Notes: a model not told the origin generated them from the letters alone. Counted from the first letter of the stretch, positions 1,529 to 19,955 are shown. The stretch: DNA of 32,000 bases from Geotalea uraniireducens Rf4 (GCF_000016745.1 NC_009483.1:3330001-3362000); one strand, 5' to 3'. Translations and numbers: made by a program.

Positions 1529-2704
1529 ATGACATTACAGCAGATCATAGCGCGTGGATACGAACAGAGAACAGCGAACAAGCCGTTGCCACCGTATATG
1601 TGGAAGGCCGCCGGACGAATCTCGGTTTGTCGGACGTCAACTCTTGGCGGCCACGTGCAGGCGTGCCCTGAGGGGCACGTTGAAAGGCACTGGTACAACT
1701 CCTGCCGGCACCGCGCCTGTCCCGTCTGCAACTATACTGCCACCGAACGATGGCTTGACAGCCAGAAAGAACGAATCCTCAACTGCGAACATTTTCATGT
1801 TGTTTTCACGCTGGACAGTGCGCTTGATCGCCTCTGGCTCGTCAATGTCCGGGCCATGACCAACATTCTTTTCCAGTCGGCCCGCGACACGCTCTTTGAA
1901 CTTTTGGGTGACGATAAATACCTGGGCGCCGAACCGGGCGTGATCATGGCGCGCCATACCTGGGGGCAGATGCTCGGCCTTCATCCGCATGTTCACTGCC
2001 TGGTATCGGGGGGCGGCCTGACCCAGAGCGGTGAATGGCGCAGTGTCGCCAACGGCTATCTGCTACCGGTGCGGGTCGTGCGCTCCCTGTTCTGCGGCAA
2101 GTTCCTCGATGCAATTCGCCGCGGAGTTGAGCGGGCAGAGCTGACCGTGCCGGATGGCGAGCGACCGCAGCAGGTTTTGAACCTGCTCAACAAGCTCGGC
2201 CGCAAGAAGTGGAATGTCTGCATCCGGGAGCGCTACGCGCACGGCAACGGTGTCTTGACCTACCTCGGCCGGTACTTGCGCGGCGGAGCCATTTCGAACC
2301 GCCGAATCATTTCGTCCGACGAAGAGCAGGTGCGTTTCCGCTACAAGGATTATCGCGAAGAAAGTGAGAGCGGCGGCAAGAAGTGCAAAACGATGGAGCT
2401 TAGCGTCAATGACTTTGTGCGCCGGGTGCTGCTGCATGTCCCGGAACCGGGCCACAAGGTGGTGCGTTCATACGGATTGTACGCGGGAAGCCGGCGCCAG
2501 GCCCTTGACCGCTGCCGGGAATTACTCGGGCAAGAACCGGTACAGGAGCCGAAGGCGCGCACATGGCAGGAATGCGTGGCGGGACTGGGAGAGACAAACC
2601 CCGGCCAATGCCCGGTATGCGGCTCACGGCTGGTGCAACGGGAGGTGTTTCGTCCGGAGTTCAGGGGCGAGACAAGGAAGTTTCCAATGAAAGAGGCGGC
2701 ATGA
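1529..2704 (+). CDS. IS91-family (Y2 HUH rolling-circle) transposase, apparently intact (391 aa)
   Basis: N-terminal Cys/His zinc-binding region (CRTSTLGGHVQACPEGH...YNSCRHRACPVC). HTWGQMLGLHPHVHCLVSGGGL is the HUH block and YLGRYLRGG is the double-Tyr block. There is a C-terminal CPVCG. The layout is typical of IS91/IS801-like transposases. Confidence 0.9.
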   Translation: MTLQQIIARGYEQRTANKPLPPYMWKAAGRISVCRTSTLGGHVQACPEGHVERHWYNSCRHRACPVCNYTATERWLDSQKERILNCEHFHVVFTLDSALDRLWLVNVRAMTNILFQSARDTLFELLGDDKYLGAEPGVIMARHTWGQMLGLHPHVHCLVSGGGLTQSGEWRSVANGYLLPVRVVRSLFCGKFLDAIRRGVERAELTVPDGERPQQVLNLLNKLGRKKWNVCIRERYAHGNGVLTYLGRYLRGGAISNRRIISSDEEQVRFRYKDYREESESGGKKCKTMELSVNDFVRRVLLHVPEPGHKVVRSYGLYAGSRRQALDRCRELLGQEPVQEPKARTWQECVAGLGETNPGQCPVCGSRLVQREVFRPEFRGETRKFPMKEAA

Positions 2705-3113
2705 GCAGGCAGCAAGAAGTGACTGACGATCAGCAGCCGGTGATGACGCATGCCTTAAAGACAGGAAAAACGAAGCTTCTGGGAGAGTCAAAGGCAAATC
2801 ACACCACCAAACCCGCCCAAGACAAGGAAGATTTCAGCGACGGCAACAATTTACTGACAAAAAAACCGTAAATCAGCTCTGGCGGTGACGAGAAAACTCC
2901 ATAGACCACAAAGAAAAAGCTCAACACTCGGATGGAACAGACGCGCCGATCAAGATCGCCGCTAAAGGCATGTTTTGGGGCGGCTTGCTGTTCATCCTCT
3001 AAAACGTTGAACTAAACCGCTTCGCGGTAGCTAAAAACCAATAAAGTCAAAGGCATAAAGGCGAATTAAAAGCAAATCCGAATTAAAACCGAAAATAAAC
3101 CCAAGACCCACTT

Positions 3114-3144
3114 AGGCAGCTTCTTATGAGGCTGCCTTTTTTTA
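3114..3144 (+). terminator. Stem-loop plus T-run (intrinsic-terminator-like; could also be an IS91-family end hairpin)
   Basis: AGGCAGC (3114-3120), a 10-nt loop, GCTGCCT (3131-3137), then TTTTTTT. It sits between the first IS91-type transposase and the recombinase gene. Confidence 0.5.
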
Positions 3145-3222
3145 TTGCCAAATCGAGACTACTCCTTTCATCGTACGTTTCACGGCCTGAGGGCCGAAAA
3201 ACCAAGAAAAGGAGAAACAATC

Positions 3223-4062
3223 ATGACTGACTTGCGACGAAGGATGATGGAAGATCTGCAACTTGCCGGGTACAGTGCGAGGACGCAGAAGAGCTACCTC
3301 GATGCAGTACGGGGACTGGCCAAGTATTACATGCGCTCCCCTGACCTGCTGTCGGAAGACGATGTACGCGGTTTCTTCCTGCACCTGCTCAAAGTGCGCA
3401 AAGCCGCCCGGAGCACCTTCACCATTTACCTGAGCGGTATCAAGTTCTTCTTTGAAACAACATTGCAGCGCAAGTGGAGTGTCTTTGGCATTACCAAACC
3501 GGCCAAGAGCAAACGGCTGCCGGTCGTGCTCTCCCGGAAAGAGGTCAGAACCTTACTTAAGAGCATCAAGAACCCAAGAGTAAAGATGGCGCTCACCATC
3601 ATCTATGCCTGCGGCCTGCGGCTCTCCGAAGGGGCACGGCTCAAGGTAAAGGACATCGACAGCGGCAGAAAGCTCCTCTGGGTGCGGGACGGCAAAGGCA
3701 TGAAAGACCGCTGTGTCCCCTTACCCAAAAGGCCACTGGAGCTACTGCAGACACACTATCGGCTTTTTGGCGCAGGTTCAGAGTATCTCTTCCCCTCCGG
3801 GGATGGCCACATCAACATCTGCACCATCCAGACCGCCTTCAGGGTAGCGGTAAGAAAAAGCGACATCGGCAAGACGGCCACCGTCCACACCCTGCGACAT
3901 TCCTACGCCACCCATCTTCTGGAAAACGGCGAGGACAGTGCCACCCTCAAGGAGATCCTCGGTCATAGCAGCATCACCACCACCAACATCTATCTCCACA
4001 TGACGGAGATGCTCACCGGCCGCCTCGGCAAGAGCCTGAACGAGCTGATGAGCGATCTTTAG
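3223..4062 (+). CDS. Tyrosine recombinase/phage-integrase-family protein, upstream partner of an IS91-family transposase
   Basis: I prefer the ATG at 3223, preceded by AAGGAGA, over the track start at 3145. The N-terminal SAM-like block is MMEDLQLAGYSARTQKSYLDAVRGLAKYY. Catalytic blocks are ACGLRLSE (Arg), HTLRHSYATHLL (H-x-x-R) and LGHSSITTTNIYLH (His/Tyr). The stop is 2 nt before the next transposase start. Confidence 0.85.
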   Translation: MTDLRRRMMEDLQLAGYSARTQKSYLDAVRGLAKYYMRSPDLLSEDDVRGFFLHLLKVRKAARSTFTIYLSGIKFFFETTLQRKWSVFGITKPAKSKRLPVVLSRKEVRTLLKSIKNPRVKMALTIIYACGLRLSEGARLKVKDIDSGRKLLWVRDGKGMKDRCVPLPKRPLELLQTHYRLFGAGSEYLFPSGDGHINICTIQTAFRVAVRKSDIGKTATVHTLRHSYATHLLENGEDSATLKEILGHSSITTTNIYLHMTEMLTGRLGKSLNELMSDL

Positions 4063-4064
4063 CC

Positions 4065-4611
4065 GTGGTCACGCTGGCTGATATCGTCACTGTTCATGGC
4101 GGCGACTATCTGCAGGAGTTCGGCACAAGGATACTCCCCAGCCACAAAAGGGCACTGGCAGATATTGTCGCCTGCCGCACCGAAAGCATGGGAGGACACG
4201 TCGATGAGTGTGAAGATTGCGGCCATCAACAATACCTCTACCACTCCTGCAAAAACAGAAGCTGCCCCAAGTGCCACGGCAGTGAGACCAGAATCTGGCT
4301 GACCAAGAGAGAAGGCGAACTCCTGCCGGTACGCTACTTTCATCTGGTCTTCACCCTTCCGTCAGAACTGCGGGACCCGGTACGCAAACACCAGAAGGTA
4401 CTCTACGCCATCCTCATGCAGGCAGCAGTGGAAACCCTCACCGCAATCGGACTCGATCCCAAGTTCGTCGGCGGCAAACTCGGCATCCTCGCCGTCCTGC
4501 ATACCTGGACAAGAGCTCTGGAGCACCATCCCCACGTGCATATGCTGGTCCCCGCCGGCGGACTTGATAAAGACGGCCAATGGCGGGAGTCCCGCAAGAA
4601 GTACCTCGTGC
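4065..4611 (+). pseudogene. IS91-family transposase, N-terminal fragment (split by an IS21 insertion)
   Basis: GTG start. Contains the CRTESMGGHVDECEDCGH..YHSCKNRSCPKCHG zinc region and HTWTRALEHHPHVHMLVPAGGL. The reading frame leaves the gene at 4611/4612, where the IS21 terminal repeat begins. Confidence 0.85.
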
Positions 4612-4678
4612 TGTCAATCGGCTTTGAATTTTGACCCACCATCGGCGTCCAATTTTGACCCACCCCAGGTAGTAGTTT

Positions 4679-5416
4679 TCAGTTATTGATCCTCGTTCTG
4701 ATTCTCCAGCTTTCGTTTCCGGTTTCGATTATCTCGCAGTGATGCGTGACCCTGTCCAGGAGAGCTGTCGTCATCTTGCCATCGCTGAACACCTGCGGCC
4801 ATTCACCGAAGGTCAGGTTTGTGGTGATGATGAGCGACGTCCTCTCGTAGAGCTTCGAGATCAGGTGGAACAGAAGCTGGCCGCCATTCTTGGAGAACGG
4901 CAGGTATCCCAGTTCATCAAGTATGACCAGGTCATGCCTGACCAGGTGTTCCGCCAGTTTACCACCTCTGTTGTCCAGTTTCTCCTGCTCAAGCTGGTTT
5001 ACCAGATCCAGTACGTTGAAGAACCTGGCTTTCCTTCCGTTTCTGATGCTCTGCTTGGCAATCGCTATGGCCAGGTGTGTTTTGCCGGTACCGGTGCCAC
5101 CGACCATGATGATGTTGGTGTGATCAGCGAGAAAGTTACCACTGTAAAGGTGCCTCACCTGCATCTCATTGACCGGTGAGGCCGTAAATTCAAACCGGTC
5201 CAGATCCTTATCCACGGGGAACTTCGCCAAGCCCATGCGATAGCGGATGCTTCTAGCCTTGCGCTCTGCCATCTCCGTTTCCAGAAGATCACAGAGGATC
5301 TTCTCCGGAGTGGCCCGGCTTTTTATGCCTGCCGCCAGTAGCTCGTCGAAGGTGGCCTTCATGCCGTACAGCCCAAGTGTTTCCATCGCCTCCATCAGGC
5401 GGTCACGCAGTACCAT
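4679..5416 (-). CDS. istB: IS21-family helper ATPase IstB
   Basis: Contains [19 protein letters not shown]..., Walker [12 protein letters not shown] and Walker [11 protein letters not shown] prefer the ATG at 5416 (GGGAGG 5 nt upstream), which overlaps the istA stop by 14 nt. The track start at 5458 is probably too long. Confidence 0.88.
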
Positions 5417-6923
5417 GCGCACCTCCCGAGAGGAGGCGGTCATAGCGGTAACAATCAACCACCGGGACCAGCTTGAGAAGCGGCAGTTGTGCTGACAGTT
5501 TCACTGGTTCCGGTTGCGGCTCGTCGTGTGTGCGGGACAGGATGCTGAGGATGACATCACTGCTGACCGTTTTATCGGAGAGAGCCTGCGTACAGGCAGT
5601 GGCTACTGCTTCCAGTCCGTAGCGGCTGACGACAGAGAGGATGCCGACGAACTGGCGGTCACCACCAGAACGTCCTTCCAATATTGTCCTGACTTCGCTC
5701 ATAGCTTCCGGCAGATCCCATCGTTTGAAGGGCGCTCCGTTTCGTAATGCTCCCGGCTTCTGCTCCAGAACAGCCAGATAGTGCCAGGGATCATAGATGA
5801 CTTTGTCACGGCCAAGATTGCGCTGGTGAACGCCGACAACTGTGCCATTCAGAATCATGCTGACATGGTTGGCGTATGCCCGCACCGAGACCGATTTGCC
5901 TACGGCCATAGCATTGACGCTGTAACGGTTGCGATCAAAGCTGATCAGCAGTTGCGATGAGACACGGACAAAGCTTTCCTGGTAGCCGTCGAAAGGAGAT
6001 ACCGGAAGTGCCAAGAGTTTGGTCTTCTCTTCGGCAAAGACCTGGTCAATGGTTCTCTCCTTGAACTCAGGATGCTTTGCTGTGGCGGCGTGATTGCGGC
6101 ATTCACCTTCCAGCCATTCGTTCAGCTCCTCAAGGGAGGCAAAGCGTCGGCGCTGAACGAAGAAGCGGTGCCGGACCACGCCAACCTGATTCTCCACCTG
6201 TCCCTTCTCCCAGCCGGCGGCAGGGGTACAGGCCACCGGTTCGAACAGGTAGTGGGAGGCCAGGTTCTGGAAGCGCCGGTTGAAGACCCGGTCCTTGCCC
6301 ATCAGTACCTTGGTGACAACCGTTTTAAGGTTGTCGTAGATGCCGCGTTTGCAGATACCGCCAAAGAATTCGAAAGCGCGGGAATGGGCATCAAGGACCA
6401 TCTCCAAACTCTCACGGGTATACGCGACACAGAACGGCTTGCGGCTGTGGCACAGACGGAAATGGGATACCTTCACTTCTACCGGCATACCACCCAGCTC
6501 CACCTTCTCATAACTCCAGTCGAACTGGAAGGCGTCACCGGGTTCCCATTCGAGAGGGATGAAGGCTTTGACTAAAGCCGTGCCATCGTCTTCCTTCCAA
6601 GTGCCCACATAACGACGTACAGCATCATAGCCTCCGGTATACCCTTCCCGCTGCAACTGCTCAAAAAGAATCTGGGCGCGACGACGATGTTTAACGGGTT
6701 TATCACGATCTTCCTTCAACCATTCTGACAGCCGTTCAACAAAAGAGCCGAGCTTGGGGCGGGGCTGTTCACTCCGCTCATACTTTTGGTCGGTTATGCC
6801 GCTACGGATAATGGATCGGACGGTGTTGCGGGACAGGTTGAACTCGCGGGTTATCTCACGAATTCCCTTGCCGTCTCTAAAATGAGCCTGACGGACTTTA
6901 CGGATGGTTTCCACGTTCAGCAT
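5403..6923 (-). CDS. istA: IS21-family transposase IstA (506 aa)
   Basis: N-terminal HTH ([20 protein letters not shown]). DDE-type core typical of IstA. Overlaps the downstream istB start. Confidence 0.9.
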
Positions 6924-7047
6924 CTCCTTTGTTTCTCCTCTCTCTGATGAAATCAGAGAGTATGGAGCAGAGTGCTGGGGTGGGTCAATTTTGGACGCCG
7001 ATTATGCTCGAAAGTGGGTCATTATTGCACGCCGATCCACATCGTGC

Positions 7048-7619
7048 CGGTGAAAGCCCTGTCAAAGGGCTTTCGCTACCGGTTCATGAAGATGGCCAGA
7101 AAAGCACTTCCCGAGGTGATCTTTCCTGGGCAAGTCTGGGACAAGGAGTGGGTGGTCTTCTGCAAACCGACCTTCAACCGGGCAAAAAAGGTGTTCCATT
7201 ACCTTGGCAGATACGTCCACCGCATCGCCATTACCAATAACCGTATTCTTGCCCTGGATAACGGTCAGGTCGTCTTCCGCTACCAGAATTCCGACACCAG
7301 AGAGTGGAAGAATATGCGGCTACCGGTAAAGGAGTTCCTGCGTCGCTACCTGCAGCACGTCCTGCCGCAGGGGTTTCACAAGGTCCGCTACTACGGACTT
7401 TTAAGTCCAGGAAATAGAGTAACCCTGAAACGGTTGCAGCTCCTGCTTGCAGAGAGAAGAAAGACAAAAGAAGAAAAGAACGAAGAGACTTCTCCGCCAC
7501 CGGCAGAGCGCCGCTGTCCCTGCTGTGAAGAGGGGACAATGGTGATAATCAGCTGGCTGCCGCGTAAAGCGAGAAGCCCGCCGCAAGGAAGGGCACGGAC
7601 AATAACGACAAAACAGTGA
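7048..7619 (+). pseudogene. IS91-family transposase, C-terminal fragment
   Basis: Continues the 4065-4611 frame exactly once 4612-7047 is removed: ...KKYLV-P-VKALSKGFRYRF... Contains YLGRYVHRIAITNNRI (double Tyr) and a C-terminal CPCCEEG. The reconstructed protein is about 372 aa. Confidence 0.85.
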
Positions 7620-7852
7620 AAAGCAGCGCGGGACAAAACCGGCGCAACGCCACAACTGCGCCCGAAGTTGGCAAAAATTGTAAAGTCCGATGGTTAAACA
7701 AGGCAGGGAATCAGAGAAATTCTGATAAATGAGACAATCAACAACAATTCTTTATTGAATTGCCCTCATAAAACCCGTATTATCCACGCACCCAAAGACA
7801 AAAATCGGTATAAAAATCCAGATAGCACGTGCACAGGCCCGAAGACGGTTTA

Positions 7853-7918
7853 GTCCAACACGACTCTATGCGGCGGCTCCGCTTCGCTACGCACCGCATA
7901 AAGTCTTATTCGTTATGT
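7853..7918 (+). other. attC-like site A
   Basis: GTCCAAC (RYYYAAC, 7853-7859) ... CTCTATGCGGCGG / GCACCGCATAAAG imperfect 13-nt stem ... GTTATGT (7912-7918). The following cassette ends in GCATAAC, which is complementary to its GTTATG start. The outer stem pairs poorly, and the site could instead belong to the IS91-type element end. Confidence 0.4.
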
Positions 7919-7937
7919 CAGGAGAGAAAGAAAAGAA

Positions 7938-8558
7938 ATGTCTGAATATGAAGATTTCGTCAAAGATTTCCCTAAACGTTGTCAAGAGCTTTTAAACTTG
8001 GCAGAACGCCCTGCTTTAGACGCGGGCAGAGAAGTAACCTTGATGCTTATGGTGGCGGCGACTGCCCTATTTATTCCATTTGAGCGGCTGAAACCCGAAG
8101 GACGACAAGATCATCCGTCTAAGGACAAAGAGCGATTCCCACAGGCCGCTACTGAATTAAAAACATTACTCGAAAAACCTTTTACCGCGTCTGATCTTTT
8201 TGACAAAGAAGCAAAGTCATGGGCCACAGGTAGACTAAAGTCATTAGATGGGGCACCCGACGATTGGCCTGAGCTTCAGAGGTTAAAGCCAATATCTAGC
8301 GAAAAGAAAGTAAATTCGATTTTTAAGACAATACGAAATTCTTTGGCACATGGGAACCTGTATACAAGAGGTGGTAGTGAAATAAAATCTATCATATTTA
8401 TATCAACCATTGAGGATAGAGATAAGATCATCGGATTTCAGTTTGTCAGTGTATCTCCAGCTGATTTTAGATTATTTCTAACGCGTTGGTTCGAATTTTT
8501 AGATAAATTCCACATCGATCAGAAATGTGCTTTTAACGTAGTAATAAAATCTACGTAA
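7938..8558 (+). CDS. HEPN-motif protein (206 aa), first gene of a two-gene cassette
   Basis: AT-rich ORF with an AGGAGAGAAAG region upstream. ...NSIFKTIRNSLAHGNLY... gives R133-x4-H138, the Rx4-6H HEPN signature in an R-N-x-x-x-H context, within a predicted helical protein. The family assignment is unverified. Confidence 0.6.
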   Translation: MSEYEDFVKDFPKRCQELLNLAERPALDAGREVTLMLMVAATALFIPFERLKPEGRQDHPSKDKERFPQAATELKTLLEKPFTASDLFDKEAKSWATGRLKSLDGAPDDWPELQRLKPISSEKKVNSIFKTIRNSLAHGNLYTRGGSEIKSIIFISTIEDRDKIIGFQFVSVSPADFRLFLTRWFEFLDKFHIDQKCAFNVVIKST

Positions 8559-8620
8559 CCATTGATGCGATGGTTGGTATTATTTTCACAGGCAATAATA
8601 AATTTATTGGAGTGCATTAA

Positions 8621-9161
8621 ATGTTTCCGTTATCAGTTGGTGATTGGGGTAAGCATAGAACTCAAGGAAAAGTTTTAATTTCTGCCGTTAATCGATATGA
8701 AGTTTATTTTGATACTACTGGCGGAGATACAATTAGAATTTCAATGGAGCGAGCAATAGAAATGATTACTCCTCTAGGAATTGAAACTATTGATAAGAGG
8801 GGAAATATAAAAGCCAATGAGATTGAAGTTGATAATACTCTTAATTATCAAGAACATAAGCGTATGCAAGTGCCCATTCGTGAGTGGAGTAGCAGGCCAT
8901 ATCAAACTGAAGCACTTAAATCACTAAGCAGTGCTTTTAATAAATATAACCAAGTCATCCTTGCCCTTCCAACTGGTAGTGGTAAGACGTTTGTTGCCGC
9001 AAAATGGATTTGCGATCATATAATTAATTGCGGAGGTAAAGTTATTTGGGTTGCTCATAGAACTGAACTTCTTGATCAAGCCTATGCAACTTTTTTGAAA
9101 TTACTGCCCCCGCATTTATCTTCTGAAATTACTTGGTGGGCCGGGGGAAGAGAGAAGAATC
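8621..9161 (+). pseudogene. SF2 (ResIII/XPB-like DEAH) helicase, N-terminal fragment (split by ISL3)
   Basis: An unassigned ~90-aa N-terminal region, then PYQTEAL (Q-motif-like) and Walker A LPTGSGKT (8972-8989). The frame is broken at 9161/9162 by the ISL3 inverted repeat. Confidence 0.85.
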
Positions 9162-10503
9162 GGCTCCTCGACGAATTGAGTGGGTAGCCTGGGCCGGGTT
9201 GATGTAAGATAGGCCACCATCACTCAGCCTGGAGGTTAGTAATCGCTATGAATCCTGAAGATCTTTTTGGTGCTGCTCTTGGAATTGCCATCCCGTGGAA
9301 GGTTACCTCTGTTGACTTCAACAAGAAGTCAAGTCGTTTGGACATAACCATCGACTTCCAGCGGGGAGCCACCTTTCCCTGTCCGGTCTGCGGAACGTTG
9401 TCACCAGTCCATGACACCACGGAGAAAGAGTGGCGGCATCTGAATTTCTTCCAGTACGAAGCCTACCTTCATGCGCGTGTTCCACGGGTAAAGTGCCCTA
9501 ACAGCGACTGCGGCGTGAAGTTGGTCCAGGTACCCTGGGCTCGCGCAGGCTCAGGATTTACGCTGCTGTTTGAGGCCCTGGCCATGACCATGGCTCGTGA
9601 TTTGCCGGTGAAGGTCATGAGCAGGCTGTTTGCCGTTACCGATACCCGTCTATGGCGGTTGATTCAATCCTATGTCGAGAAGACAAGGGCCGCAGAAGAC
9701 TTCTCCGAGGTGAAGAGGGTCGGTGCGGATGAAACCTTTGCCGGGCGCAGTCATGACGAGAAATTCGTCACCTTCTTCTTCGACCTCGACATGCATAAGC
9801 TCTTGTTCGGCACGACGGGAAAGGACAACGAAACAGTCAAGAGCTTCGTCGCGGACCTTAAGTCACATGGCGGCGATCCTGATAGCATCACAGACGCTGC
9901 TATTGACATGTCCAAGGCATTCATAAAGGGTGTCAAAGAGCAGTTGCCCCATGCCGTGGTCACCTTCGATAAATTCCACGTCATCAAGCTTATGAACGAT
10001 AAGCTTAGTAAGATAAGGGCTCAAGAAGCCAGGTTATTTCCTGAAATCCTGAAAAAGAGCAGAAACCTGTTCCTCAAAAATCCAGAGAACCTGACACCGG
10101 AAGAGGAACAGCGCCTGGATGCCATTATCACCAGTCAAAGCTTAAGGAGTACGGAAGCTTACATGCACAAGCTGAACCTTCAGAACGTCTATTTTGCTTC
10201 AAGCCGAACGGAGGCAGAAACCCTGTTGACCAAATGGCATCGGAAAGCCGCCGCAAGCTCAATCCAACTCATCAAGAACATGGCCGAATCTGTAAAAGAG
10301 CATTGGGATGGCATTCTGGCACATTTTGAAAGCGGCCTGACTAGCGGCTTCATTGAGGGCATCAACAGCCTAATTCAATCAGCCAAAACTCGGGCACGAG
10401 GCTATCGGAATCCTGACAACTTGATCTGCATGGCTTATCTGGTTGCAGGCAAGCTCAACCTAAAGTCGCTATTCCCTCTACCCACTTGATTCGTTGCAGA
10501 GCC
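9162..10503 (+). mobile_element. ISL3-family insertion sequence (1342 bp)
   Basis: The left inverted repeat is GGCTCCTCGACGAATTGAGTGGGTAG. The reverse complement of the right one is GGCTCTGCAACGAATCAAGTGGGTAG. An 8-bp direct repeat GAAGAATC lies at 9154-9161 and 10504-10511. Confidence 0.88.
9248..10489 (+). CDS. ISL3-family transposase (413 aa)
   Basis: N-terminal zinc-finger region (FPCPVCG...VKCPNSDCG) followed by a DDE domain. The length and layout are typical of ISL3. Confidence 0.9.
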   Translation: MNPEDLFGAALGIAIPWKVTSVDFNKKSSRLDITIDFQRGATFPCPVCGTLSPVHDTTEKEWRHLNFFQYEAYLHARVPRVKCPNSDCGVKLVQVPWARAGSGFTLLFEALAMTMARDLPVKVMSRLFAVTDTRLWRLIQSYVEKTRAAEDFSEVKRVGADETFAGRSHDEKFVTFFFDLDMHKLLFGTTGKDNETVKSFVADLKSHGGDPDSITDAAIDMSKAFIKGVKEQLPHAVVTFDKFHVIKLMNDKLSKIRAQEARLFPEILKKSRNLFLKNPENLTPEEEQRLDAIITSQSLRSTEAYMHKLNLQNVYFASSRTEAETLLTKWHRKAAASSIQLIKNMAESVKEHWDGILAHFESGLTSGFIEGINSLIQSAKTRARGYRNPDNLICMAYLVAGKLNLKSLFPLPT

Positions 10504-10511
10504 GAAGAATC

Positions 10512-12055
10512 CTTATGGTAGGATAGTTCTCGTTTCGATCATGGCCGCAAAAACATTCCCATCTATAACAACAGATATTTTAGTCATTGATGAAGCTCAC
10601 CATGAACCAGCACAGACCTATCAAGCCTTTCAGGATAAAATTGAATTCAAAAAGAATTTGGGGCTAACTGCAACACCCAAGAGACTAGATGCAAAGGTGC
10701 TAAATTACGAAGCCATTGCATATCAGAAAACCTTTATGTCTCTTGTACATGAAAAATGGCTCGCTTGCCCAGACCCTGTCTTGTCGCAAACAGGCATGGT
10801 CTTTGATCTTGATGTAAGAATGGATGATTTTAGCGAAGAATCGCTTACTTCACTTGATAACGATCCTCGCAACGATTTCATAGTTAAGCACTGGATGGAC
10901 AATTCGGAAAAATATGGGAAAACATTGGTTTTTGCCCTTAATCGTGATCATGCAAGACGACTTACAGAATCTTTCAGGAAAGCAATTCCTGGGAAAATGA
11001 TCGATTATATTGTTTCTGGAGAAGGTAATCTGTCAGATAGAAATACAAAGGTATCGTTATTTAGAAACGGCATGATTGATGTTTTGATAAATTGTAAAAT
11101 TTTTACTGAAGGGTTTGACTGTCCTGATGTAAAAACTATTTTTCTTACAAGACCAACGTTATCTGTTTCTTTGTACCTCCAAATGATTGGTAGAGGTACA
11201 AGAATAACTCCAACAAAAACATCTTTTTACTTGGTTGATTTCCAGGATGATCTCGGTAAATTCCAAAATCAACTTATTAAACCATGGGTTTTAGGCGATG
11301 AGCTAAACAATGAATTAATTACTACTGCAAATAAGAACATTGTCGAAGATGTAGAAGTTGATCCAATATCTGATATTGATGAAGATTTACCTAACTGGTT
11401 AAAAGAGGACATAACCTTATCTCCAATAGATTTAAATTTGATCGCAGGTTATGTGATATTTAAGCATGACAGTGGCCGTGAGGATGGATTTCTTGTTCAC
11501 GTCGATGATGAAGATCTGTTTTTGAATGCATGGGTTGAATTAAACAGTAAAAAAGACAATTGTTGCGCAGATGAATTAGGAATATTAGCATTAAATATGT
11601 ACAAACTACTATCTACTAATAGATTGTCTCTTCAAGGATTTGTTAGTGCTGCTATTGCCCTTGCAAGTGGTAATTCCGAATACATTAAATTGAATTCTCC
11701 AAAAACATTAACTACAATTTTTGATTTTCTGAACGACATATATATTTCTCAAGAGGAAGAAAGTGACTTGAAGAAGCATTCATCAGATATTTATGCAATT
11801 ATTAAATTCACTATCGATGAAATTGATGAAGGCCTATCATGGAGTCAAGTTTTTGAAAATGAAAAATACGTATTTGATAAAGCAACAAACGAACTCACCA
11901 AGAATAATCATTTACGCGGGCTTGAGTTAAAAAAGAAAATAGCTTGTATTTACAATGAGATATTAATTGATACGCATCTTCTGGAATTTGAATGGGAACG
12001 ATTCTGTTTGAATATGATTAAAGATAAATTTTCATGCATTTTATATTTGCCGTGA
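10512..12055 (+). pseudogene. SF2 DEAH helicase, C-terminal fragment
   Basis: In frame with 8621-9161 after deleting 9162-10511: ...WWAGGREKN-P-YGRIVLVSIMAAKTF... Contains VIDEAHH (DEAH, 10589-10600), LGLTATPKR (motif III) and QMIGRGTRI (motif VI). An unassigned ~260-aa AT-rich C-terminal region follows. Confidence 0.85.
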
Positions 12056-12141
12056 TCTCTTCCGCATTTTACAGAAAACCTGTGTACTCATCTGCACAGA
12101 GATCCTCTTAAATACTATGAACTCTATAATGCAAAAAAATC

Positions 12142-12200
12142 GCATAACAAACGCATGCACCTGACCACAAAACCGTCAGGTGATGCTTGCCCCGTTGGCA
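12142..12200 (+). other. attC-like site B (59 bp, family 1)
   Basis: GCATAAC-aaacgc-ATGCACCTGAC-cacaaaacc-GTCAGGTGAT-gcttgcccc-GTTGGCA. There is one bulged G in the left arm. It is homologous to site E, with compensatory changes (CTGAC/GTCAG in B versus CTGCC/GGCAG in E). Confidence 0.7.
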
Positions 12201-12221
12201 GTCGAACGGAAAGGAGGATAA

Positions 12222-12848
12222 ATGTATTGCACTCAATGCGGCGCACAAGCCGTCTCAGAAGCTAAGTTTTGTGCTAAATGTGGTGAGGCTTTAGGTACAA
12301 GTTCAGTAATAACTGAACCGGAACTTCCACTTTCACTTGCATCAATGCAGAATTCAAGCCCTGCCACTGATGACGCAAAGTGTGGACCAACTGGAGTCGG
12401 TGGCTGGCTAAAGTTGCTTGTCGTTGGAATGCTGGTGCTTGGACCGTTGATGGGGGCAGGCCGAATTGAAAATGATTTCATGATGGCAGAACATCAAAAT
12501 CCCAATATTACGTCATTGAATGAATGGAAAACCTTTAAAAATGCGACATGGTGGACATTTTACATAGTTGCCGCTATGAGCTTTTATGGCGGTTGGGGTT
12601 TGGCTCGGGGGCGCGACGTGTCAGTTGTAAATAGAGCCAAAGCTATCTTGTGGCTAACTGGCCCTGTTGCCTCAATTAACTTGGCAATAATTATACCATT
12701 CATAATTTTTGGTAAAACTGAAGCAGGCAATCCGCAATTTATTGGCGGATTCTTTGCGTCTGTAGTTGGAGCGATTATTTGGACGGTTTATTTGTCAAAA
12801 TCGAAACGGGTTCGTAACACTTATTGCAACTCTAAACATTTTATGTAA
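12222..12848 (+). CDS. Zinc-ribbon plus multi-pass membrane protein (DUF2569-like), 208 aa
   Basis: AGGAGG RBS. The N-terminal CTQCG...CAKCG is a zinc ribbon. A linker follows, then GVGGWLKLLVVGMLVLGPL and three further hydrophobic helices. Confidence 0.7.
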   Translation: MYCTQCGAQAVSEAKFCAKCGEALGTSSVITEPELPLSLASMQNSSPATDDAKCGPTGVGGWLKLLVVGMLVLGPLMGAGRIENDFMMAEHQNPNITSLNEWKTFKNATWWTFYIVAAMSFYGGWGLARGRDVSVVNRAKAILWLTGPVASINLAIIIPFIIFGKTEAGNPQFIGGFFASVVGAIIWTVYLSKSKRVRNTYCNSKHFM

Positions 12849-12884
12849 CCCCTAACTTCGGAGTACCCCCAAGTGGAGGTTAAT

Positions 12885-13235
12885 ATGAAACTGACTCAAT
12901 TTTCTCAAATAGAGTACAGCCGAATTCTGGATCTAAATGGCGCTCGCAATAAAGGCTATAGTCAATCTGAGTGTGAGAATATCCTTGTGGCAGCAGGAGC
13001 AACCACCATGCAGGCAAAAAATGGTGCTTATGTCTATTTGCACCATGGGTCAAAGATTTCAGCAACTCGAAGAGCATCTCGCTCAGAATATGAGCACCTC
13101 CTAAATGATTTTGAAGGAAGAGAGAAAGAATCTAAAGAATGTATCCAGCATTTGGAAAACATGGGCTTTAGCTACGGGCAAGCAAAAACTGCAGTGTATA
13201 ATTATCGTGTGAAGCACGGATTAATTGGTAAGTGA
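12885..13235 (+). CDS. Hypothetical 116-aa protein with an internal duplicated G(Y/F)S..QAK..Y.Y module
   Basis: I prefer the ATG at 12885, 4 nt after GGAGG (12876-12880), over the GTG at 12873. It lies 36 bp downstream of the membrane-protein gene, with no attC-like site between them. Confidence 0.6.
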   Translation: MKLTQFSQIEYSRILDLNGARNKGYSQSECENILVAAGATTMQAKNGAYVYLHHGSKISATRRASRSEYEHLLNDFEGREKESKECIQHLENMGFSYGQAKTAVYNYRVKHGLIGK

Positions 13236-13287
13236 GGTGATTAGGGGAGTCCCGGAGGGATCATCCCTTGATGATAAAAAGGCGAAA

Positions 13288-13360
13288 TCCCAACCAGGCA
13301 GTTGGACACCGGTCGGGCGGAAAGGCTGCCCGAACGGGTCAACTGCGCGGCCCGTTGGCG
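13288..13360 (+). other. attC-like site C (73 bp, family 2)
   Basis: TCCCAAC-cag-GCAGTTGGACACCGGTCGGGC-ggaaaggct-GCCCGAACGGGTCAACTGC-gcggccc-GTTGGCG. The left arm has bulged G and A. It is homologous to site D, with the inner stem switched (GTCGGGC/GCCCGAA in C versus CCAGCCC/GGGCTTG in D). Confidence 0.75.
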
Positions 13361-13438: not shown

Positions 13439-14758
13439 TTGGGAACAGAGATTGAGTTTGAAATCGGAGGGGCCAGCCTTAGCTGGAGCAAAAATTCACG
13501 CGGCATGGATCACGGTATGCTTTTCCAAGCGAAGGACCGGAAACGCCTCCACTCCGACCAGATTGACTATGATTACTTCACTGAAAATGGTCAGGATCCC
13601 GGCCTTATGGAAATGGCTCTTTGTAGGCCGCTCAAGGAGATCGTTCCTCGGATTGAACTCCTTGGTTTCACACTCAATGAGGTAGAACGCGAGTACAAGA
13701 AGTGCACTGAAAGCTGGCTTGAACAATGCCAGATGATGGCTCATGAGGTGGAAGAATTTTCAGAGCCGGATGTGATGACGTTCCAGGAGTTTTGTGCATT
13801 TGTTGCAGCGCACCCTATCCAAACTCTAGACCATTCATTTATCTCTTCATTCGATAATGCGGAAAGCGAGCGGAAAATCCAAGGCAGATTTGACGCCATG
13901 CCGGAAATACGAAGAATTCCTTATTTCCCATCAGCTATCGATAACACGTACTCTGAGCGCAGCTATTTTGCCGGCTTAGTCAATTTTATGCACCCTTACT
14001 CCACTCTCCGCCTTCTAGCGCAAAACATGTCAAACCTGAATGCGGACGTTGTGTGGCAGTATGGACCGTTGGTAGAAAATGGCTGGGCAAGCGAAAGTGA
14101 ATTTATACCTGATGCTCGAAGGAACCAGACTTTTCTGATAGCAACTGAAGGCAGTTCCGATGTCCATATTATCAAGCACGCTCTGTCACTGTTGAAGCAT
14201 GAAATCGCTGACTTTTTCAGGTTTATTGACGTGAGTGAGCGGCATCCATTCTCAGGTACAGGGAACTTAGTCAAGTTTGCTGAAGGGCTTGTTAAGATTG
14301 ATGTGCATAATCAGGTAGTTTTTGTGCTCGACAACGACGCCGAGGGTTTCGAAGCATATCAACGCATTTCGGATATGAACCTGCCCCCTAATATGCGAGC
14401 AATGATGTTACCGACATTGGAAGAGTTCCGCGCCTTTCCAGCTCGAGGTCCGGAAGGCGTGACTAATACTGATATTAATGGACGTGCGGCCGCGATTGAG
14501 TGCTATCTGGACCTTAACCTTCATGGTTTCGAGCCGGCAAAAGTAGTGTGGACTAACTACAAGAAGGAACTCGACCTCTACCACGGTGCTTTAGAATTCA
14601 AAGATTCCTATACCAAAGCATTTTTAAAGCAGACTGCCGAAACAGTATCGGCGGGAAACTATTCGGTGCACAAACTTCAAGTTGTGCTCGACGCACTTAT
14701 CGCTGAATGCTGTGCTGTCACCATAGAGGTAGGAAGAACAGGTCTAGGAGAGATATGA
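13439..14758 (+). CDS. Unknown N-terminal domain fused to a TOPRIM-like (OLD/DUF4435-type) domain, 439 aa
   Basis: TTG start giving MGTEIEFEIGGASLSWSKNS... The TOPRIM signature is a conserved Glu in FLIATEGSSD (E237, 14147-14149) and DxD in VFVLDNDAEG (D298/D300, 14330-14338). The N-terminal ~220 aa resembles my memory of the module called 'HEPN/Toprim-associated N-terminal domain'. There is no ATPase domain. Confidence 0.6.
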   Translation: MGTEIEFEIGGASLSWSKNSRGMDHGMLFQAKDRKRLHSDQIDYDYFTENGQDPGLMEMALCRPLKEIVPRIELLGFTLNEVEREYKKCTESWLEQCQMMAHEVEEFSEPDVMTFQEFCAFVAAHPIQTLDHSFISSFDNAESERKIQGRFDAMPEIRRIPYFPSAIDNTYSERSYFAGLVNFMHPYSTLRLLAQNMSNLNADVVWQYGPLVENGWASESEFIPDARRNQTFLIATEGSSDVHIIKHALSLLKHEIADFFRFIDVSERHPFSGTGNLVKFAEGLVKIDVHNQVVFVLDNDAEGFEAYQRISDMNLPPNMRAMMLPTLEEFRAFPARGPEGVTNTDINGRAAAIECYLDLNLHGFEPAKVVWTNYKKELDLYHGALEFKDSYTKAFLKQTAETVSAGNYSVHKLQVVLDALIAECCAVTIEVGRTGLGEI

Positions 14759-14791
14759 GGGGTCAACTATACAAATGATTTGAAGCGATGA

Positions 14792-14863
14792 TCCCAACAA
14801 GACAGTTGGACACCGCCAGCCCGAAAAGACTGGGCTTGCGGGTCAACTGCCGAGCCGTTATGC
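14792..14863 (+). other. attC-like site D (72 bp, family 2)
   Basis: TCCCAAC-aag-ACAGTTGGACACCGCCAGCCC-gaaaagact-GGGCTTGCGGGTCAACTGC-cgagcc-GTTATGC. See site C for the compensatory changes. Confidence 0.75.
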
Positions 14864-15628: not shown

Positions 15629-15638
15629 GAATGAGATG

Positions 15639-15698
15639 GCATAACCAGAAAAATGCACCTGCCCTAAAACCGGCAGGTGATTTTCCGAACCGTTGGAT
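15639..15698 (+). other. attC-like site E (60 bp, family 1)
   Basis: GCATAAC-cagaaa-ATGCACCTGCC-ctaaaacc-GGCAGGTGAT-tttccgaac-c-GTTGGAT. R' fits GTTRRRY. The preceding cassette starts with GTTATGC, which is complementary to this GCATAAC. Confidence 0.75.
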
Positions 15699-19843: not shown

Positions 19844-19907
19844 GTTTGCCCTGACACCCTGTGTTTGCCCTGACACCCTGTGTTTGCCCTGACACCCTGT
19901 GTTTGCC
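19844..19907 (+). repeat. Tandem repeat, 19-bp unit GTTTGCCCTGACACCCTGT x3 plus a 7-bp partial copy
   Basis: Three perfect copies at 19844-19862, 19863-19881 and 19882-19900, then GTTTGCC running directly into the left arm of attC-like site F. Confidence 0.9.
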
Positions 19908-19955
19908 ATTGACCTGCCCTAACAACCCGGCAGGTCAATGGCTGGCCCGTTAGCG
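19905..19955 (+). other. attC-like site F (family 1, lacking a recognisable R'')
   Basis: GCCATTGACCTGCC-ctaacaaccc-GGCAGGTCAATGGC is a perfect 14-bp stem, followed by tggccc-GTTAGCG. The stem and loop are homologous to sites B and E (..CACCTGCC-ctaaaacc-GGCAGGTG..). The RYYYAAC side is replaced by the 19-bp tandem repeat. Confidence 0.5.

What the first reader, a model, noticed from the sequence alone, without database searches (positions are those of the whole stretch)
7919..12200. Two-gene integron cassette: HEPN-motif protein plus SF2 DEAH helicase with unassigned flanking domains (candidate undescribed defence system, currently knocked out by ISL3)
Exactly two co-directional ORFs, 62 bp apart, sit between attC-like sites A and B. 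They are visibly more AT-rich than the GC-rich backbone.

ORF1 (206 aa) carries TIRNSLAHGN, an R-x4-H HEPN RNase signature.

ORF2 becomes one continuous ~695-aa frame after in-silico removal of 9162-10511 (...GGREKN-P-YGRIVLV...). It has Walker A, DEAH, TATP and QxxGRGxR motifs, plus a ~90-aa N-terminal and a ~260-aa C-terminal region that I cannot assign.

A helicase sensor paired with a small nuclease-like effector is the logic of Hachiman, Helicase-DUF2290 and Mokosh. I do not recognise a named system that uses a HEPN partner of this type.

A two-gene cassette is unusual, since integron cassettes typically hold a single ORF. The ISL3 insertion is precise and has an intact TSD, which fits recent loss of a costly or toxic module.
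Basis: partly seen in the sequence, partly recalled or inferred. Interest (0 to 1): 0.85.

Follow-up and report, generated by a model that had tools for sequence, protein, structure and literature searches.

The report
HEPN–helicase integron cassette, IS-disrupted
A mobile gene cassette in a Geotalea (Geobacter) uraniireducens chromosome carries a predicted RNA-cutting HEPN protein next to an unusual DNA-motor helicase that a jumping gene has split; it looks like a rare, untested anti-phage module assembled from known kinds of parts, not a wholly new kind of system.

Summary
Two co-directional ORFs, 62 bp apart, lie between two attC-like sites. Removing an ISL3 element and one copy of its 8-bp target duplication restores a 694-aa SF2 helicase, whose intact 694-aa homologue is 93% identical.

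ORF1 belongs to the already described pEK499_p136 HEPN family and has an RNxLAH motif conserved across that family. The helicase core resembles RadD, SauUSI, XPB and HsdR. Its C-terminal domain matches no Pfam model or PDB sequence and is almost confined to this small family. Its N-terminal domain is weakly like the RNA-polymerase-binding CarD/TRCF Tudor domain.

PADLOC has no model for ORF1 or for the pair. A HEPN–helicase pairing recurs in two metagenomic loci. However, 10 of 13 helicase-family loci lack a p136 HEPN, and none of 53 genomic HEPN loci has this helicase. Both genes otherwise sit among restriction and defence genes.

Best reading: a rare candidate defence module made of a translocase sensor and a HEPN RNase effector, carried in a cassette and now inactivated. 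Functional coupling is plausible but unproven. The cassette array has at least six attC-like sites, no integron integrase in the window, and many IS elements. I rate it a new variant of a known kind, of moderate interest.

The parts
7852..7918 (+). attC-like site A. This is the upstream cassette boundary, with R''-like GTCCAAC and R'-like GTTATGT.
   Evidence: It has the AAC...GTT layout and an imperfect 13-bp stem, GACTCTATGCGG/CCGCATAAAGTC. Folding is not better than shuffles (z -0.3 and -1.1). It is the weakest of the sites.
7938..8558 (+). ORF1, 206 aa. It is a pEK499_p136-family HEPN protein and a predicted metal-independent RNase. It is intact.
   Evidence: It is 100% identical to P0001 from Geotalea uraniireducens, which UniRef names 'pEK499-p136 HEPN domain-containing protein'. 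It matches PF18736 at E 1.8e-4, 21.7 bits, below the GA of 26.6. Of 36 family members, 28 hit PF18736 and no other family. The AF2 model has pLDDT 88.8.
8334..8351 (+). HEPN catalytic motif R133-N-S-L-A-H138.
   Evidence: Translation confirmed. In the 36-sequence alignment H138, L136 and G139 are invariant, and R133, N134, A137 and N140 are at least 90% conserved. The motif sits at the C-terminal end of helix 125-138 in the model, which is where PMC3710099 places Rx4-6H (end of helix 3).
8559..8620 (+). 62-bp intergenic spacer with a weak hairpin (8556-8576) and a GGAG ribosome-binding site.
   Evidence: The spacer is partly conserved in L001.
8621..9161 (+). Helicase 5' part (residues 1-180). 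It holds the N-terminal small beta domain (8621-8773), a disordered linker, and motifs Q/I (PTGSGKT at 8969-8989).
   Evidence: The N-domain is weakly CarD/TRCF-RID-like: best Pfam hit is E 3.5e-4 in a family member, and the PDB CarD entry 2lt1 scores E 0.042.
9154..9161 (.). Left copy of the 8-bp target-site duplication, GAAGAATC.
9162..10503 (+). ISL3-family insertion sequence, 1342 bp, with an intact 413-aa transposase at 9248-10489 and 26-bp terminal inverted repeats.
   Evidence: Pfam hits are DDE_Tnp_ISL3 at 1.1e-67, plus HTH_Tnp_ISL3 and Zn_ribbon_ISL3. The inverted repeats match at 21 of 26 positions.
10504..10511 (.). Right copy of the target-site duplication, GAAGAATC.
10512..12055 (+). 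Helicase 3' part (residues 181-694). It holds DEAH (10589-10600), motif III, RecA2 with QMIGRGTR (11180-11203), and the family-specific C-terminal domain (about 11378-12052).
   Evidence: Pfam hits are ResIII at 1.1e-24 and Helicase_C at 8e-13. Foldseek matches RadD at 9e-21, SauUSI at 9e-18, and also XPB and HsdR. The C-domain has no Pfam or PDB sequence match. It has only 15 representatives among 1.84 billion proteins, nearly all in this helicase family.
12141..12200 (+). attC-like site B. This is the downstream cassette boundary, with GCATAAC ... GTTGGCA.
   Evidence: The stem GCAT[G]CACCTGAC/GTCAGGTGATGC has one bulged base. MFE is -13.2 and z is -2.9. It is a paralogue of the site at 15638-15698.

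Best explanation
This is a 2.9-kb attC-flanked cassette in the Geotalea uraniireducens chromosome. It encodes a rare, uncharacterised, defence-type two-gene module.

**Gene 1** is a pEK499_p136-family HEPN protein. I infer that it is a metal-independent RNase effector acting through R133 and H138.

**Gene 2** is a 694-aa SF2 ATPase. Its core is of the dsDNA-translocase type found in RadD, SauUSI, XPB and HsdR. The core is flanked by a small N-terminal Tudor-like domain, possibly an RNA-polymerase-interacting domain like CarD/TRCF-RID, and by a family-specific C-terminal domain of unknown specificity.

**Proposed mechanism (inferred, not shown).** The helicase is the ATP-driven sensor. It loads on invading or abnormally transcribed or replicated DNA through its accessory domains, then licenses the HEPN RNase. 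The RNase cleaves RNA (mRNA, tRNA or rRNA) and stops phage production by growth arrest.

**Current state.** In this genome the module is inactive. An ISL3 element inserted between helicase motifs Ia and II. The intact duplication, intact transposase and undecayed helicase halves suggest a recent event. The HEPN gene remains intact, which implies it is harmless without a working helicase.
For: **Shown here**
- The anatomy and the precise reconstruction hold.
- ORF1 belongs to the p136 HEPN family, with a family-wide conserved RNxLAHGN motif.
- The order of secondary-structure elements in the model fits HEPN, with the motif at the end of helix 3 (PMC3710099).
- The helicase core is assigned by fold and by motifs.
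- Co-occurrence recurs in L001, and independently in L133 with a different p136 subfamily.

**Defence context of the helicase family**
- L058: next to a DUF262/GmrSD-like gene, identified by its sequence motif.
- L138/L139: between two McrBC operons.
- L137: next to NERD-UvrD and SMC-like genes.
- L135: next to an SNF2 gene.
- P0098: a variant fused to an HNH nuclease.

**Defence context of the HEPN family.** Immediate neighbours across 53 genomes include Abi_C (5), N6_Mtase (4), ResIII (4), Methylase_S (3) and GmrSD_N (2). One locus has HsdR-HEPN-HsdM.

**Other support**
- Adjacent cassettes in the window are also defence-like: HEPN_Toprim_N and a CoiA-like nuclease.
- Integron cassettes, including two-gene ones, are documented stores of defence systems (bioRxiv 10.1101/2024.07.02.601686).
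Against: - There is no experimental evidence for either protein.
- The pairing is the exception. Ten of 13 helicase-family loci lack a p136 HEPN, and several of those helicases stand alone (L004, L136, L140). None of 53 genomic loci with an ORF1 homologue has this helicase.
- The closest HEPN relatives are either solitary (L181/L182) or coupled to an unrelated ~165-aa protein.
- ORF1 itself scores below Pfam's gathering threshold.
- Its confident model found no solved HEPN by Foldseek (best E 0.05, TM 0.2).
- The N-domain assignment rests on sub-threshold hits.
- The sensor-effector logic is an analogy, not a result.
Confidence: 0.55

Rival explanations
1. The two genes are independent defence or accessory genes that share one cassette, for example after two cassettes fused by losing the attC between them. 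They would not form one functional system. The helicase family would work alone or with whatever nuclease lies nearby, and the HEPN would be a free-standing or R-M-accessory RNase.
For: - Most helicase-family loci have no HEPN and carry variable neighbours, or none.
- ORF1-type HEPNs occur alone (L181/L182) or with a different conserved ~165-aa partner.
- The spacer contains a short TAAC...hairpin...GTTGGTA element that could be a vestigial attC.
Against: - The adjacency recurs with a different HEPN subfamily in L133. Given how rare both families are, a chance repeat is unlikely.
- The pair is kept with the same order and a similar spacer in L001, which is apparently not an attC context.
Confidence: 0.3
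2. The pair is a toxin-antitoxin or addiction-like module. The HEPN would be a toxin that the helicase, or its N-terminal part, holds in check, and the module would stabilise the cassette array.
For: - HEPN proteins are frequent toxins. One example is the MNT/HEPN pair next to the module in L001.
- Multi-ORF integron cassettes are often TA systems (general knowledge).
- The 188-aa N-terminal helicase fragment (8621-9187) is still encoded.
Against: - The HEPN gene is intact while its putative antitoxin is disrupted.
- A 694-aa ATPase is not a typical antitoxin.
- ORF1 homologues occur with no partner at all.
Confidence: 0.06
3. The helicase is a housekeeping-type DNA-repair or replication-restart helicase similar to RadD, and its position next to a HEPN gene has no significance.
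For: The best NCBIfam and Foldseek matches of the core are to RadD.
Against: - The RadD score is 113 bits against a cutoff of 720.
- The family is very rare and patchy, AT-rich relative to its host, carried in a cassette, and found inside defence islands.
- It lacks RadD's own C-terminal region.
Confidence: 0.04

Closest known systems
pEK499_p136 HEPN family (Pfam PF18736; Anantharaman et al. 2013, PMC3710099)
   Same: ORF1 and its relatives match only this Pfam family. They carry its RNxLAH motif and, like the family as described, sit in R-M and defence neighbourhoods.
   Different: ORF1 belongs to a divergent subfamily and scores below GA itself. That paper lists R-M, ART/Macro, NamA and Pgl as partners. 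It does not list a RadD/SauUSI-like stand-alone helicase.
Hachiman (HamA DUF1837 nuclease + HamB SF2 helicase) and similar helicase-plus-nuclease two-gene defence systems (Helicase-DUF2290, Mokosh)
   Same: The logic is the same: a small nuclease-type gene next to a large SF2 helicase, in defence contexts.
   Different: - ORF1 hits no PADLOC model.
- The helicase hits HamB only at E 7e-4 to 2e-3, over the Walker A region.
- The effector here is a HEPN RNase-type protein, not a PD-(D/E)xK, PLD or DUF2290 protein.
- The helicase accessory domains are different.
SauUSI-type Type IV restriction enzymes and Type I HsdR translocases
   Same: These are the best PADLOC hits (mREase_IV at 5.7e-27; REase_I) and strong Foldseek hits for the ATPase core (SauUSI 7clg at 9e-18; EcoR124I HsdR). 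Distant ORF1 homologues are embedded in hsdR-HEPN-hsdM operons.
   Different: - There is no PLD or PD-(D/E)xK nuclease domain and no DUF3427/SRA-like reader.
- No methylase or specificity subunit is in the cassette.
- The similarity is confined to residues ~90-430.
Defence systems carried as integron cassettes (Darracq et al., bioRxiv 10.1101/2024.07.02.601686; Mobile Integrons Encode Phage Defense Systems, bioRxiv 10.1101/2024.07.02.601719)
   Same: A compact defence-type module lies between attC sites, and neighbouring cassettes are also defence-like. Two-gene cassettes have precedent (Sucellos, Toutatis).
   Different: - The host is a Geotalea chromosome, not Vibrio or a mobile integron.
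- No IntI lies in the window.
- At 2.9 kb the cassette is large.
- The system is not among those described there; that text does not contain the word 'helicase'.
Mfd/TRCF, CarD and PcrA/UvrD (RNA-polymerase-binding Tudor domains attached to motors)
   Same: The N-terminal ~50-residue beta domain gives its only hits to CarD_TRCF_RID, PcrA_UvrD_tudor and the CarD PDB entry 2lt1. The model shows a 4-5-strand small beta domain joined to the motor by a disordered linker.
   Different: All hits fall below curated thresholds: the best is 21 bits against a GA of 23, and that is in a homologue, not in the window protein. No binding to RNAP has been tested.

Membership tests
HEPN superfamily / pEK499_p136 (PF18736) | Rx4-6H motif with a polar residue (N/D/H) after R, conserved across the family | tested here: met
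   The motif is R133-N-S-L-A-H138. H138 is invariant, and R133 and N134 are at least 90% conserved in 36 homologues.
HEPN superfamily / pEK499_p136 (PF18736) | Match to the family HMM at or above the curated threshold | tested here: inconclusive
   ORF1 scores 21.7 bits against a GA of 26.6, at E 1.8e-4. Of 36 homologues, 28 hit PF18736 and nothing else, with a best E of 3.9e-8. UniRef names the identical protein as this family.
HEPN superfamily / pEK499_p136 (PF18736) | Four-helix up-down core with an insert between helices 2 and 3, and the motif at the end of helix 3 | tested here: inconclusive
   The AF2 model (pLDDT 88.8) has H10-28, H32-51, an insert, H125-138 ending in the motif, a beta-hairpin insert, and H174-189. 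This order fits PMC3710099. Foldseek against the PDB gave no HEPN hit (best E 0.05, TM 0.2), and the profile against PDB sequences found nothing.
SF2 helicase/translocase (ResIII + Helicase_C; RadD/XPB/HsdR/SauUSI group) | Motifs I, II (DEAH), III and VI, plus two RecA-like domains | tested here: met
   All four motifs were verified. Pfam gives ResIII at 87.6 bits and Helicase_C at 49 bits, both above GA. Foldseek gives RadD at 9e-21 and SauUSI at 9e-18.
Integron gene cassette | attC recombination sites (R''...AAC, imperfect palindrome with a bulged base, GTT...R') at both ends | tested here: inconclusive
   The downstream site B is convincing (z -2.9, bulged G, a paralogous site E). The upstream site A has the right layout but folds no better than shuffles. 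No attC covariance model was available.
Integron gene cassette | Part of an array of attC sites | tested here: met
   At least six attC-like sites lie on the + strand at intergenic positions: 7852, 12141, 13287, 14791, 15638 and 19905. Two paralogous pairs are present, and z for B-F ranges from -2.6 to -5.9.
Integron gene cassette | Adjacent integron integrase (IntI) and attI | tested here: not met
   The only tyrosine recombinase, at 3145-4062, scores 198 against a cutoff of 265 for TIGR02249. It is co-directional with the cassettes and lies 3 bp upstream of an IS91 transposase. The array is therefore CALIN-like within this window. An IntI could lie outside it.
Hachiman (HamAB) | HamA (DUF1837) partner and a HamB-type helicase | tested here: not met
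   ORF1 has no PADLOC hit at E<=0.1. HamB hits are E 7e-4 and 1.7e-3, on residues ~70-210 only.
Helicase-DUF2290 / Mokosh / other PADLOC v2 systems | A specific partner domain (DUF2290; PLD) or a full-length helicase model match | tested here: not met
   None appears among the 25 best of 35 helicase hits, which are the only ones listed. All listed hits cover only the core. Pfam finds no DUF2290 or PLD domain in either protein. DefenseFinder was not available.
ISL3 insertion sequence | ISL3 DDE transposase, terminal inverted repeats and an 8-bp target duplication | tested here: met
CarD/TRCF-RID-type RNAP-interacting Tudor domain (helicase N-domain) | Match to PF02559 or to solved CarD/Mfd RID; small 5-strand beta barrel | tested here: inconclusive
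   Three of 15 family N-domains hit PF02559, the best at E 3.5e-4 and 21 bits against a GA of 23. The window's own N-domain gives no hit. The profile against the PDB gives CarD 2lt1 at E 0.042. The model has strands 9-12, 16-23, 27-32, 37-41 and 49-51.

The most novel reading that the evidence does not exclude
The helicase would be a defence translocase tethered to RNA polymerase. Its CarD/TRCF-RID-like N-terminal Tudor domain would dock it on RNA polymerase, and its family-specific C-terminal domain would read a feature of foreign DNA or of a phage-modified transcription complex. ATP-driven translocation would then switch on the partner HEPN RNase, which would destroy transcripts as they are made. 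This would be a new sensing principle, surveillance of transcription complexes, in a modular family that swaps effectors: an adjacent HEPN, a fused HNH, or other neighbours.
Probability: 0.12. Interest if true: 0.8.

Novelty: new variant of a known kind. Interest (0 to 1): 0.52.

Why it matters
If the pair works as one system, it adds a helicase-plus-HEPN-RNase module to the anti-phage repertoire. Its helicase carries accessory domains seen almost nowhere else, and its N-terminal domain hints at a link to RNA polymerase.

It would also extend the idea of integron cassettes as stores of defence systems. That idea was shown in Vibrio and in mobile integrons; here the host is a metal-reducing deltaproteobacterium.

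The locus offers a natural knockout and a precise recipe for repair (delete 9162-10511), which makes the hypothesis cheap to test.

If the two genes are merely neighbours, the result is ordinary: two more uncharacterised genes of the defence-island type.

Tried and rejected
- **Plasmid matches.** Megablast of both halves of the cassette against 72,556 plasmids found nothing.
- **Foldseek of the ORF1 model against the PDB.** It returned only noise, namely sensor PAS, GAF and Cache domains at TM ~0.2. Fold search therefore neither confirmed nor refuted a HEPN fold.
- **HEPN profile against PDB sequences.** No hit.
- **C-terminal helicase domain.**
  - Pfam scans of 16 members and a profile search against the PDB found nothing.
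  - An internal-repeat test by hhalign was not significant (E 0.15).
  - The alignment was too divergent to seed a metagenome scan.
- **Metagenome and viral scans with the full-length helicase alignment.** These found only one close relative (L058); the rest matched on the core alone. The family was not found on viral contigs.
- **Is the ~165-aa partner of other ORF1-type HEPNs related to the helicase's extra domains?** BLASTP found no similarity.
- **Are the partners in L002 (223 aa, which has an RNLSAH motif) and L134 (252 aa) p136 HEPNs?** hhalign says no. The RNLSAH motif in L002 remains an unexplained hint of a different HEPN-like partner.
- **A regex-and-folding scan for attC sites.** It was too unspecific to be useful. 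I relied instead on site-by-site inspection and folding.
- **A Hachiman, DUF2290 or Mokosh assignment.** Rejected on PADLOC and Pfam results.

Full report
**1. What is in the sequence**

The window comes from the Geotalea (Geobacter) uraniireducens chromosome. ORF1 is 100% identical to an NCBI protein of that species, found on a 5.14-Mb contig.

- ORF1 runs from 7938 to 8558 (206 aa).
- A second ORF starts 62 bp downstream, at 8621.
- An ISL3-family element occupies 9162-10503. Its 413-aa transposase has all three ISL3 Pfam domains. Its 26-bp terminal inverted repeats match at 21 of 26 positions.
- A perfect 8-bp direct repeat, GAAGAATC, flanks the element.

Removing the element and one repeat copy joins 8621-9161 to 10512-12055 as one 694-aa frame.

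- The junction, WWAGGREKN|PYGRIVLVS, matches the consensus of 15 intact homologues.
- The nearest homologue is also 694 aa and is 93% identical from end to end.

The cassette without the IS is 2931 bp at 36% GC, against 57% for the flanking backbone.

**2. Is it an integron cassette?**

Each boundary between the co-directional genes from 7.85 to 15.7 kb carries a site of the form xxxxAAC, then an imperfect palindrome with one bulged base, then GTTrrry.

- The sites are A 7852-7918, B 12141-12200, C 13287-13360, D 14791-14863 and E 15638-15698.
- A sixth site, F, lies at about 19905-19955, beyond two more IS elements.
- B resembles E, and C resembles D.
- B to F fold better than shuffled controls, with z from -2.6 to -5.9.
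- Site A, the upstream boundary of the cassette in question, has the right layout but does not fold better than chance. It is the weak point.

No integron integrase lies in the window. The only tyrosine recombinase (3145-4062) scores 198 against the 265 cutoff for IntI. It points the same way as the cassettes and abuts an IS91 transposase.

The region is full of IS elements: two IS91 copies (one split by an IS21), the ISL3, an IS256/Mutator-type element and a DDE_Tnp_1 element.

I therefore call it an attC array with no integrase in view (CALIN-like). 'Cassette' is reasonable. 'Integron' is not demonstrated.

The next cassette (12197-13356) also holds two ORFs, so a two-gene cassette is not unique even here. 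Two-gene defence cassettes have been shown experimentally in Vibrio (bioRxiv 10.1101/2024.07.02.601686).

**3. ORF1**

Pfam gives one hit, PF18736 'HEPN pEK499 p136', at E 1.8e-4 and 21.7 bits. This is below the gathering score of 26.6.

Family-level evidence is stronger.

- There are 77 homologues in the 5.8-billion-cluster database.
- Of 36 aligned members, 28 hit PF18736 and no other family.
- UniRef uses that family name for the identical protein.
- The RNxLAHGN motif is the most conserved block.

The AF2 model is confident (pLDDT 88.8, pTM 0.85). Its elements come in the order expected for HEPN.

- First comes an alpha-hairpin (10-28, 32-51).
- Then comes a long insert.
- A helix (125-138) follows, ending in R133...H138.
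- A beta-hairpin insert comes next.
- Last is a final long helix (174-189).

Foldseek against the PDB returned no HEPN structure and nothing better than E 0.05. A profile search of PDB sequences also found nothing. The fold is therefore consistent with HEPN but not independently confirmed.

The family itself is not new. The 2013 paper lists it as occurring in operons with R-M genes, ART/Macro, NamA and Pgl components.

**4. The helicase**

- Residues ~90-430 are a ResIII plus Helicase_C core.
- The closest structures are RadD (E 9e-21), the Type IV restriction enzyme SauUSI (9e-18), XPB and the Type I HsdR.
- PADLOC's best hits are mREase_IV, PbeA and REase_I, all over the core only. HamB reaches only E 7e-4.
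- NCBIfam's best hit is RadD, at 113 bits against a cutoff of 720.

These relatives are dsDNA translocases or DNA helicases. I infer a DNA-dependent motor.

The model (pLDDT 86) shows three further parts.

- **N-terminal beta domain (1-51).** Its only database similarities are to RNA-polymerase-binding Tudor domains, and all are sub-threshold:
  - CarD_TRCF_RID in 3 of 15 family members, best E 3.5e-4 and 21 bits against a GA of 23;
  - PcrA_UvrD_tudor in one member;
  - the solved CarD domain 2lt1 at E 0.042.

  The window protein's own N-domain gives no Pfam hit. This is a lead, not a finding.
- **Disordered linker (55-86).**
- **C-terminal domain (~470-694).**
  - It has no Pfam or PDB sequence match.
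  - A full HMMER scan of 1.84 billion representative proteins found only 15 matches.
  - Nearly all of those matches are in this same helicase family.

**5. Are the two genes a system?**

I examined 13 distinct loci of the helicase family (43-93% identity, full length).

*With a p136 HEPN upstream (3 loci):*
- the window;
- L001, a JGI metagenome, with the HEPN 85% and the helicase 93% identical, in the same order and with a similar spacer, followed by an MNT/HEPN pair;
- L133, where a divergent 161-aa p136 HEPN (KIRNGLAH) and a 311-aa unknown gene precede a helicase 71% identical. The three genes are flanked on both sides by ...CCGTTGGACA, suggesting another cassette, although the 3' site does not fold significantly.

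*Without a p136 HEPN (10 loci):*
- L002/L003, where a 223-aa protein lies downstream. It has an RNLSAH motif but no profile similarity to p136.
- L134, with a 252-aa gene upstream.
- L135, next to an SNF2 gene.
- L058, next to a gene with the DUF262/GmrSD-type motif.
- L137, next to NERD-UvrD and SMC-like genes.
- L138/L139, between two McrBC operons and overlapping a 703-aa gene.
- L141.
- L004, L136 and L140, which are apparently solitary.

One family member carries an HNH insert (P0098).

From the HEPN side:
- None of 53 genomic loci with an ORF1 homologue has this helicase.
- Nine of the closest have a conserved, translationally coupled ~165-aa partner with no Pfam or PADLOC hit.
- The nearest relative after L001 is solitary.
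- More distant members sit in Type I and Type III R-M operons or next to Abi_C proteins.

Both families are therefore defence-island genes with interchangeable partners. The HEPN-helicase combination is rare. It has arisen or been kept at least twice, with different HEPN subfamilies, which argues for a functional link but does not prove one.

**6. Mechanism (inferred)**

The most economical model is the sensor-effector scheme common to helicase-nuclease defence systems.

1. The SF2 motor uses its accessory domains to recognise invading DNA or an abnormal transcription or replication complex.
2. ATP-driven remodelling activates the HEPN RNase.
3. RNA cleavage causes growth arrest.

The HEPN gene is intact while the helicase is broken. 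This fits a HEPN that is inert without its activator, and it fits poorly with a toxin held in check by the helicase.

The ISL3 insertion looks recent, given the perfect duplication, the intact transposase and the absence of decay in either helicase half. Because IS elements are so dense in this array, I see no need to invoke selection against a toxic module.

**7. Comparison and verdict**

The parts are known kinds: a p136 HEPN, a RadD/SauUSI/HsdR-like SF2 core, an attC cassette and an ISL3 element. The whole matches no PADLOC v2 system. DefenseFinder could not be run.

The only paper in the searched library that names pEK499_p136 is the 2013 survey. The integron-defence paper I read does not mention helicases.

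I classify the locus as a new variant of a known kind: a helicase-plus-nuclease two-gene defence candidate carried in an integron-type cassette.

Confidence:
- about 0.55 that the pair is a functional defence module;
- about 0.3 that the two genes are merely neighbours.

Interest is moderate (0.52). The locus is real, cleanly reconstructable and testable, and the helicase's unique C-domain and possible RNA-polymerase-binding N-domain are intriguing. Against that, synteny is weak, the family is tiny and nothing has been tested experimentally.

Noticed in passing
window 13439-14758 (+): A single-gene cassette between attC-like sites C and D encodes a 439-aa HEPN/Toprim protein (PF18871 HEPN_Toprim_N, E 1.9e-81, with weak Toprim hits). 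It has no PADLOC or NCBIfam hit. This is a second HEPN-type predicted defence gene in the same array.
   Followed up: partly
window 12197-13356 (ORFs 12222-12848 and 12873-13235): The next cassette also holds two co-directional ORFs, only 24 bp apart. One is a zinc-ribbon plus DUF2569 membrane protein and the other is a 120-aa protein with no family. Two-ORF cassettes are therefore not unique in this array.
   Followed up: partly
window 19844-19955: A perfect 19-bp tandem repeat (GTTTGCCCTGACACCCTGT, 3.4 copies) directly abuts a sixth attC-like hairpin (GCCATTGACCTGCC...GGCAGGTCAATGGC...GTTAGCG; z -5.9). The origin of the repeat is unexplained.
   Followed up: partly
window 1529-7619: There are nested mobile elements. 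An IS91-family transposase (4065-4634 and 6972-7619) is split by an IS21 element on the minus strand (istA 5403-6923, istB 4679-5458). It is preceded, 3 bp upstream, by a 305-aa tyrosine recombinase (3145-4062) that resembles but does not reach the integron-integrase model (198 against 265 bits). A second IS91 transposase lies at 1529-2704.
   Followed up: partly
window 7600-7851: The 230 bp between the IS91 transposase stop and attC-like site A contains a CAATAAC...GTTGGCA element and a promoter-like TTGAAT-17-TATTAT at 7755-7783. ORF1 has only ~20 bp of cassette sequence upstream, so it must be transcribed from outside the cassette. I did not resolve whether this stretch is the IS91 end, a degenerate attC, or an ORF-less promoter cassette.
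   Followed up: no
L005-L008, L011, L016, L017, L025, L054 (gene directly downstream of the HEPN): In nine genomes from unrelated phyla, the ORF1-type HEPN overlaps the start of a conserved ~165-aa protein (AFYPCC..DEVIFCD..LFYRRDSxGEGGSG..ITDGSN). This protein has no Pfam or PADLOC hit and only a weak PDB match to thermospermine synthase (E 0.03), suggesting a Rossmann/methyltransferase-like fold. It looks like an undescribed two-gene HEPN module that is commoner than the helicase pairing.
   Followed up: partly
L002 9248-9919 (also L003 2680-3351): The 223-aa protein downstream of a helicase 67% identical carries an RNLSAH motif and a D...EFK motif. It shows no profile similarity to p136 HEPNs and only a weak PADLOC PDC-S02 hit (E 5e-4). 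It may be a different nuclease-type partner of the same helicase family.
   Followed up: partly
P0098 (564 aa, ENA metagenome): This member of the helicase family has the same N-terminal beta domain, followed by an inserted HNH endonuclease (PF01844/PF14279) ahead of the helicase core. The family therefore also occurs with a fused DNA nuclease.
   Followed up: no
L138 / L139 5001-9186: A helicase 44% identical, lacking the N-domain, overlaps by 11 nt a 703-aa gene with a Sigma70_r4 domain and a weak MzaA-like hit. The pair sits between two divergent McrBC operons, which is a clear defence-island setting.
   Followed up: no
L004 7819-7992: A 57-aa ORF just upstream of a helicase 54% identical aligns with the family's N-terminal beta domain. 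In that locus the domain is encoded separately, or the gene is frameshifted.
   Followed up: no
window 8556-8582: The ORF1-helicase spacer contains a short TAAC-hairpin-GTTGGTA element. It could be the remnant of an attC lost when two cassettes fused. It is only partly conserved in L001.
   Followed up: no
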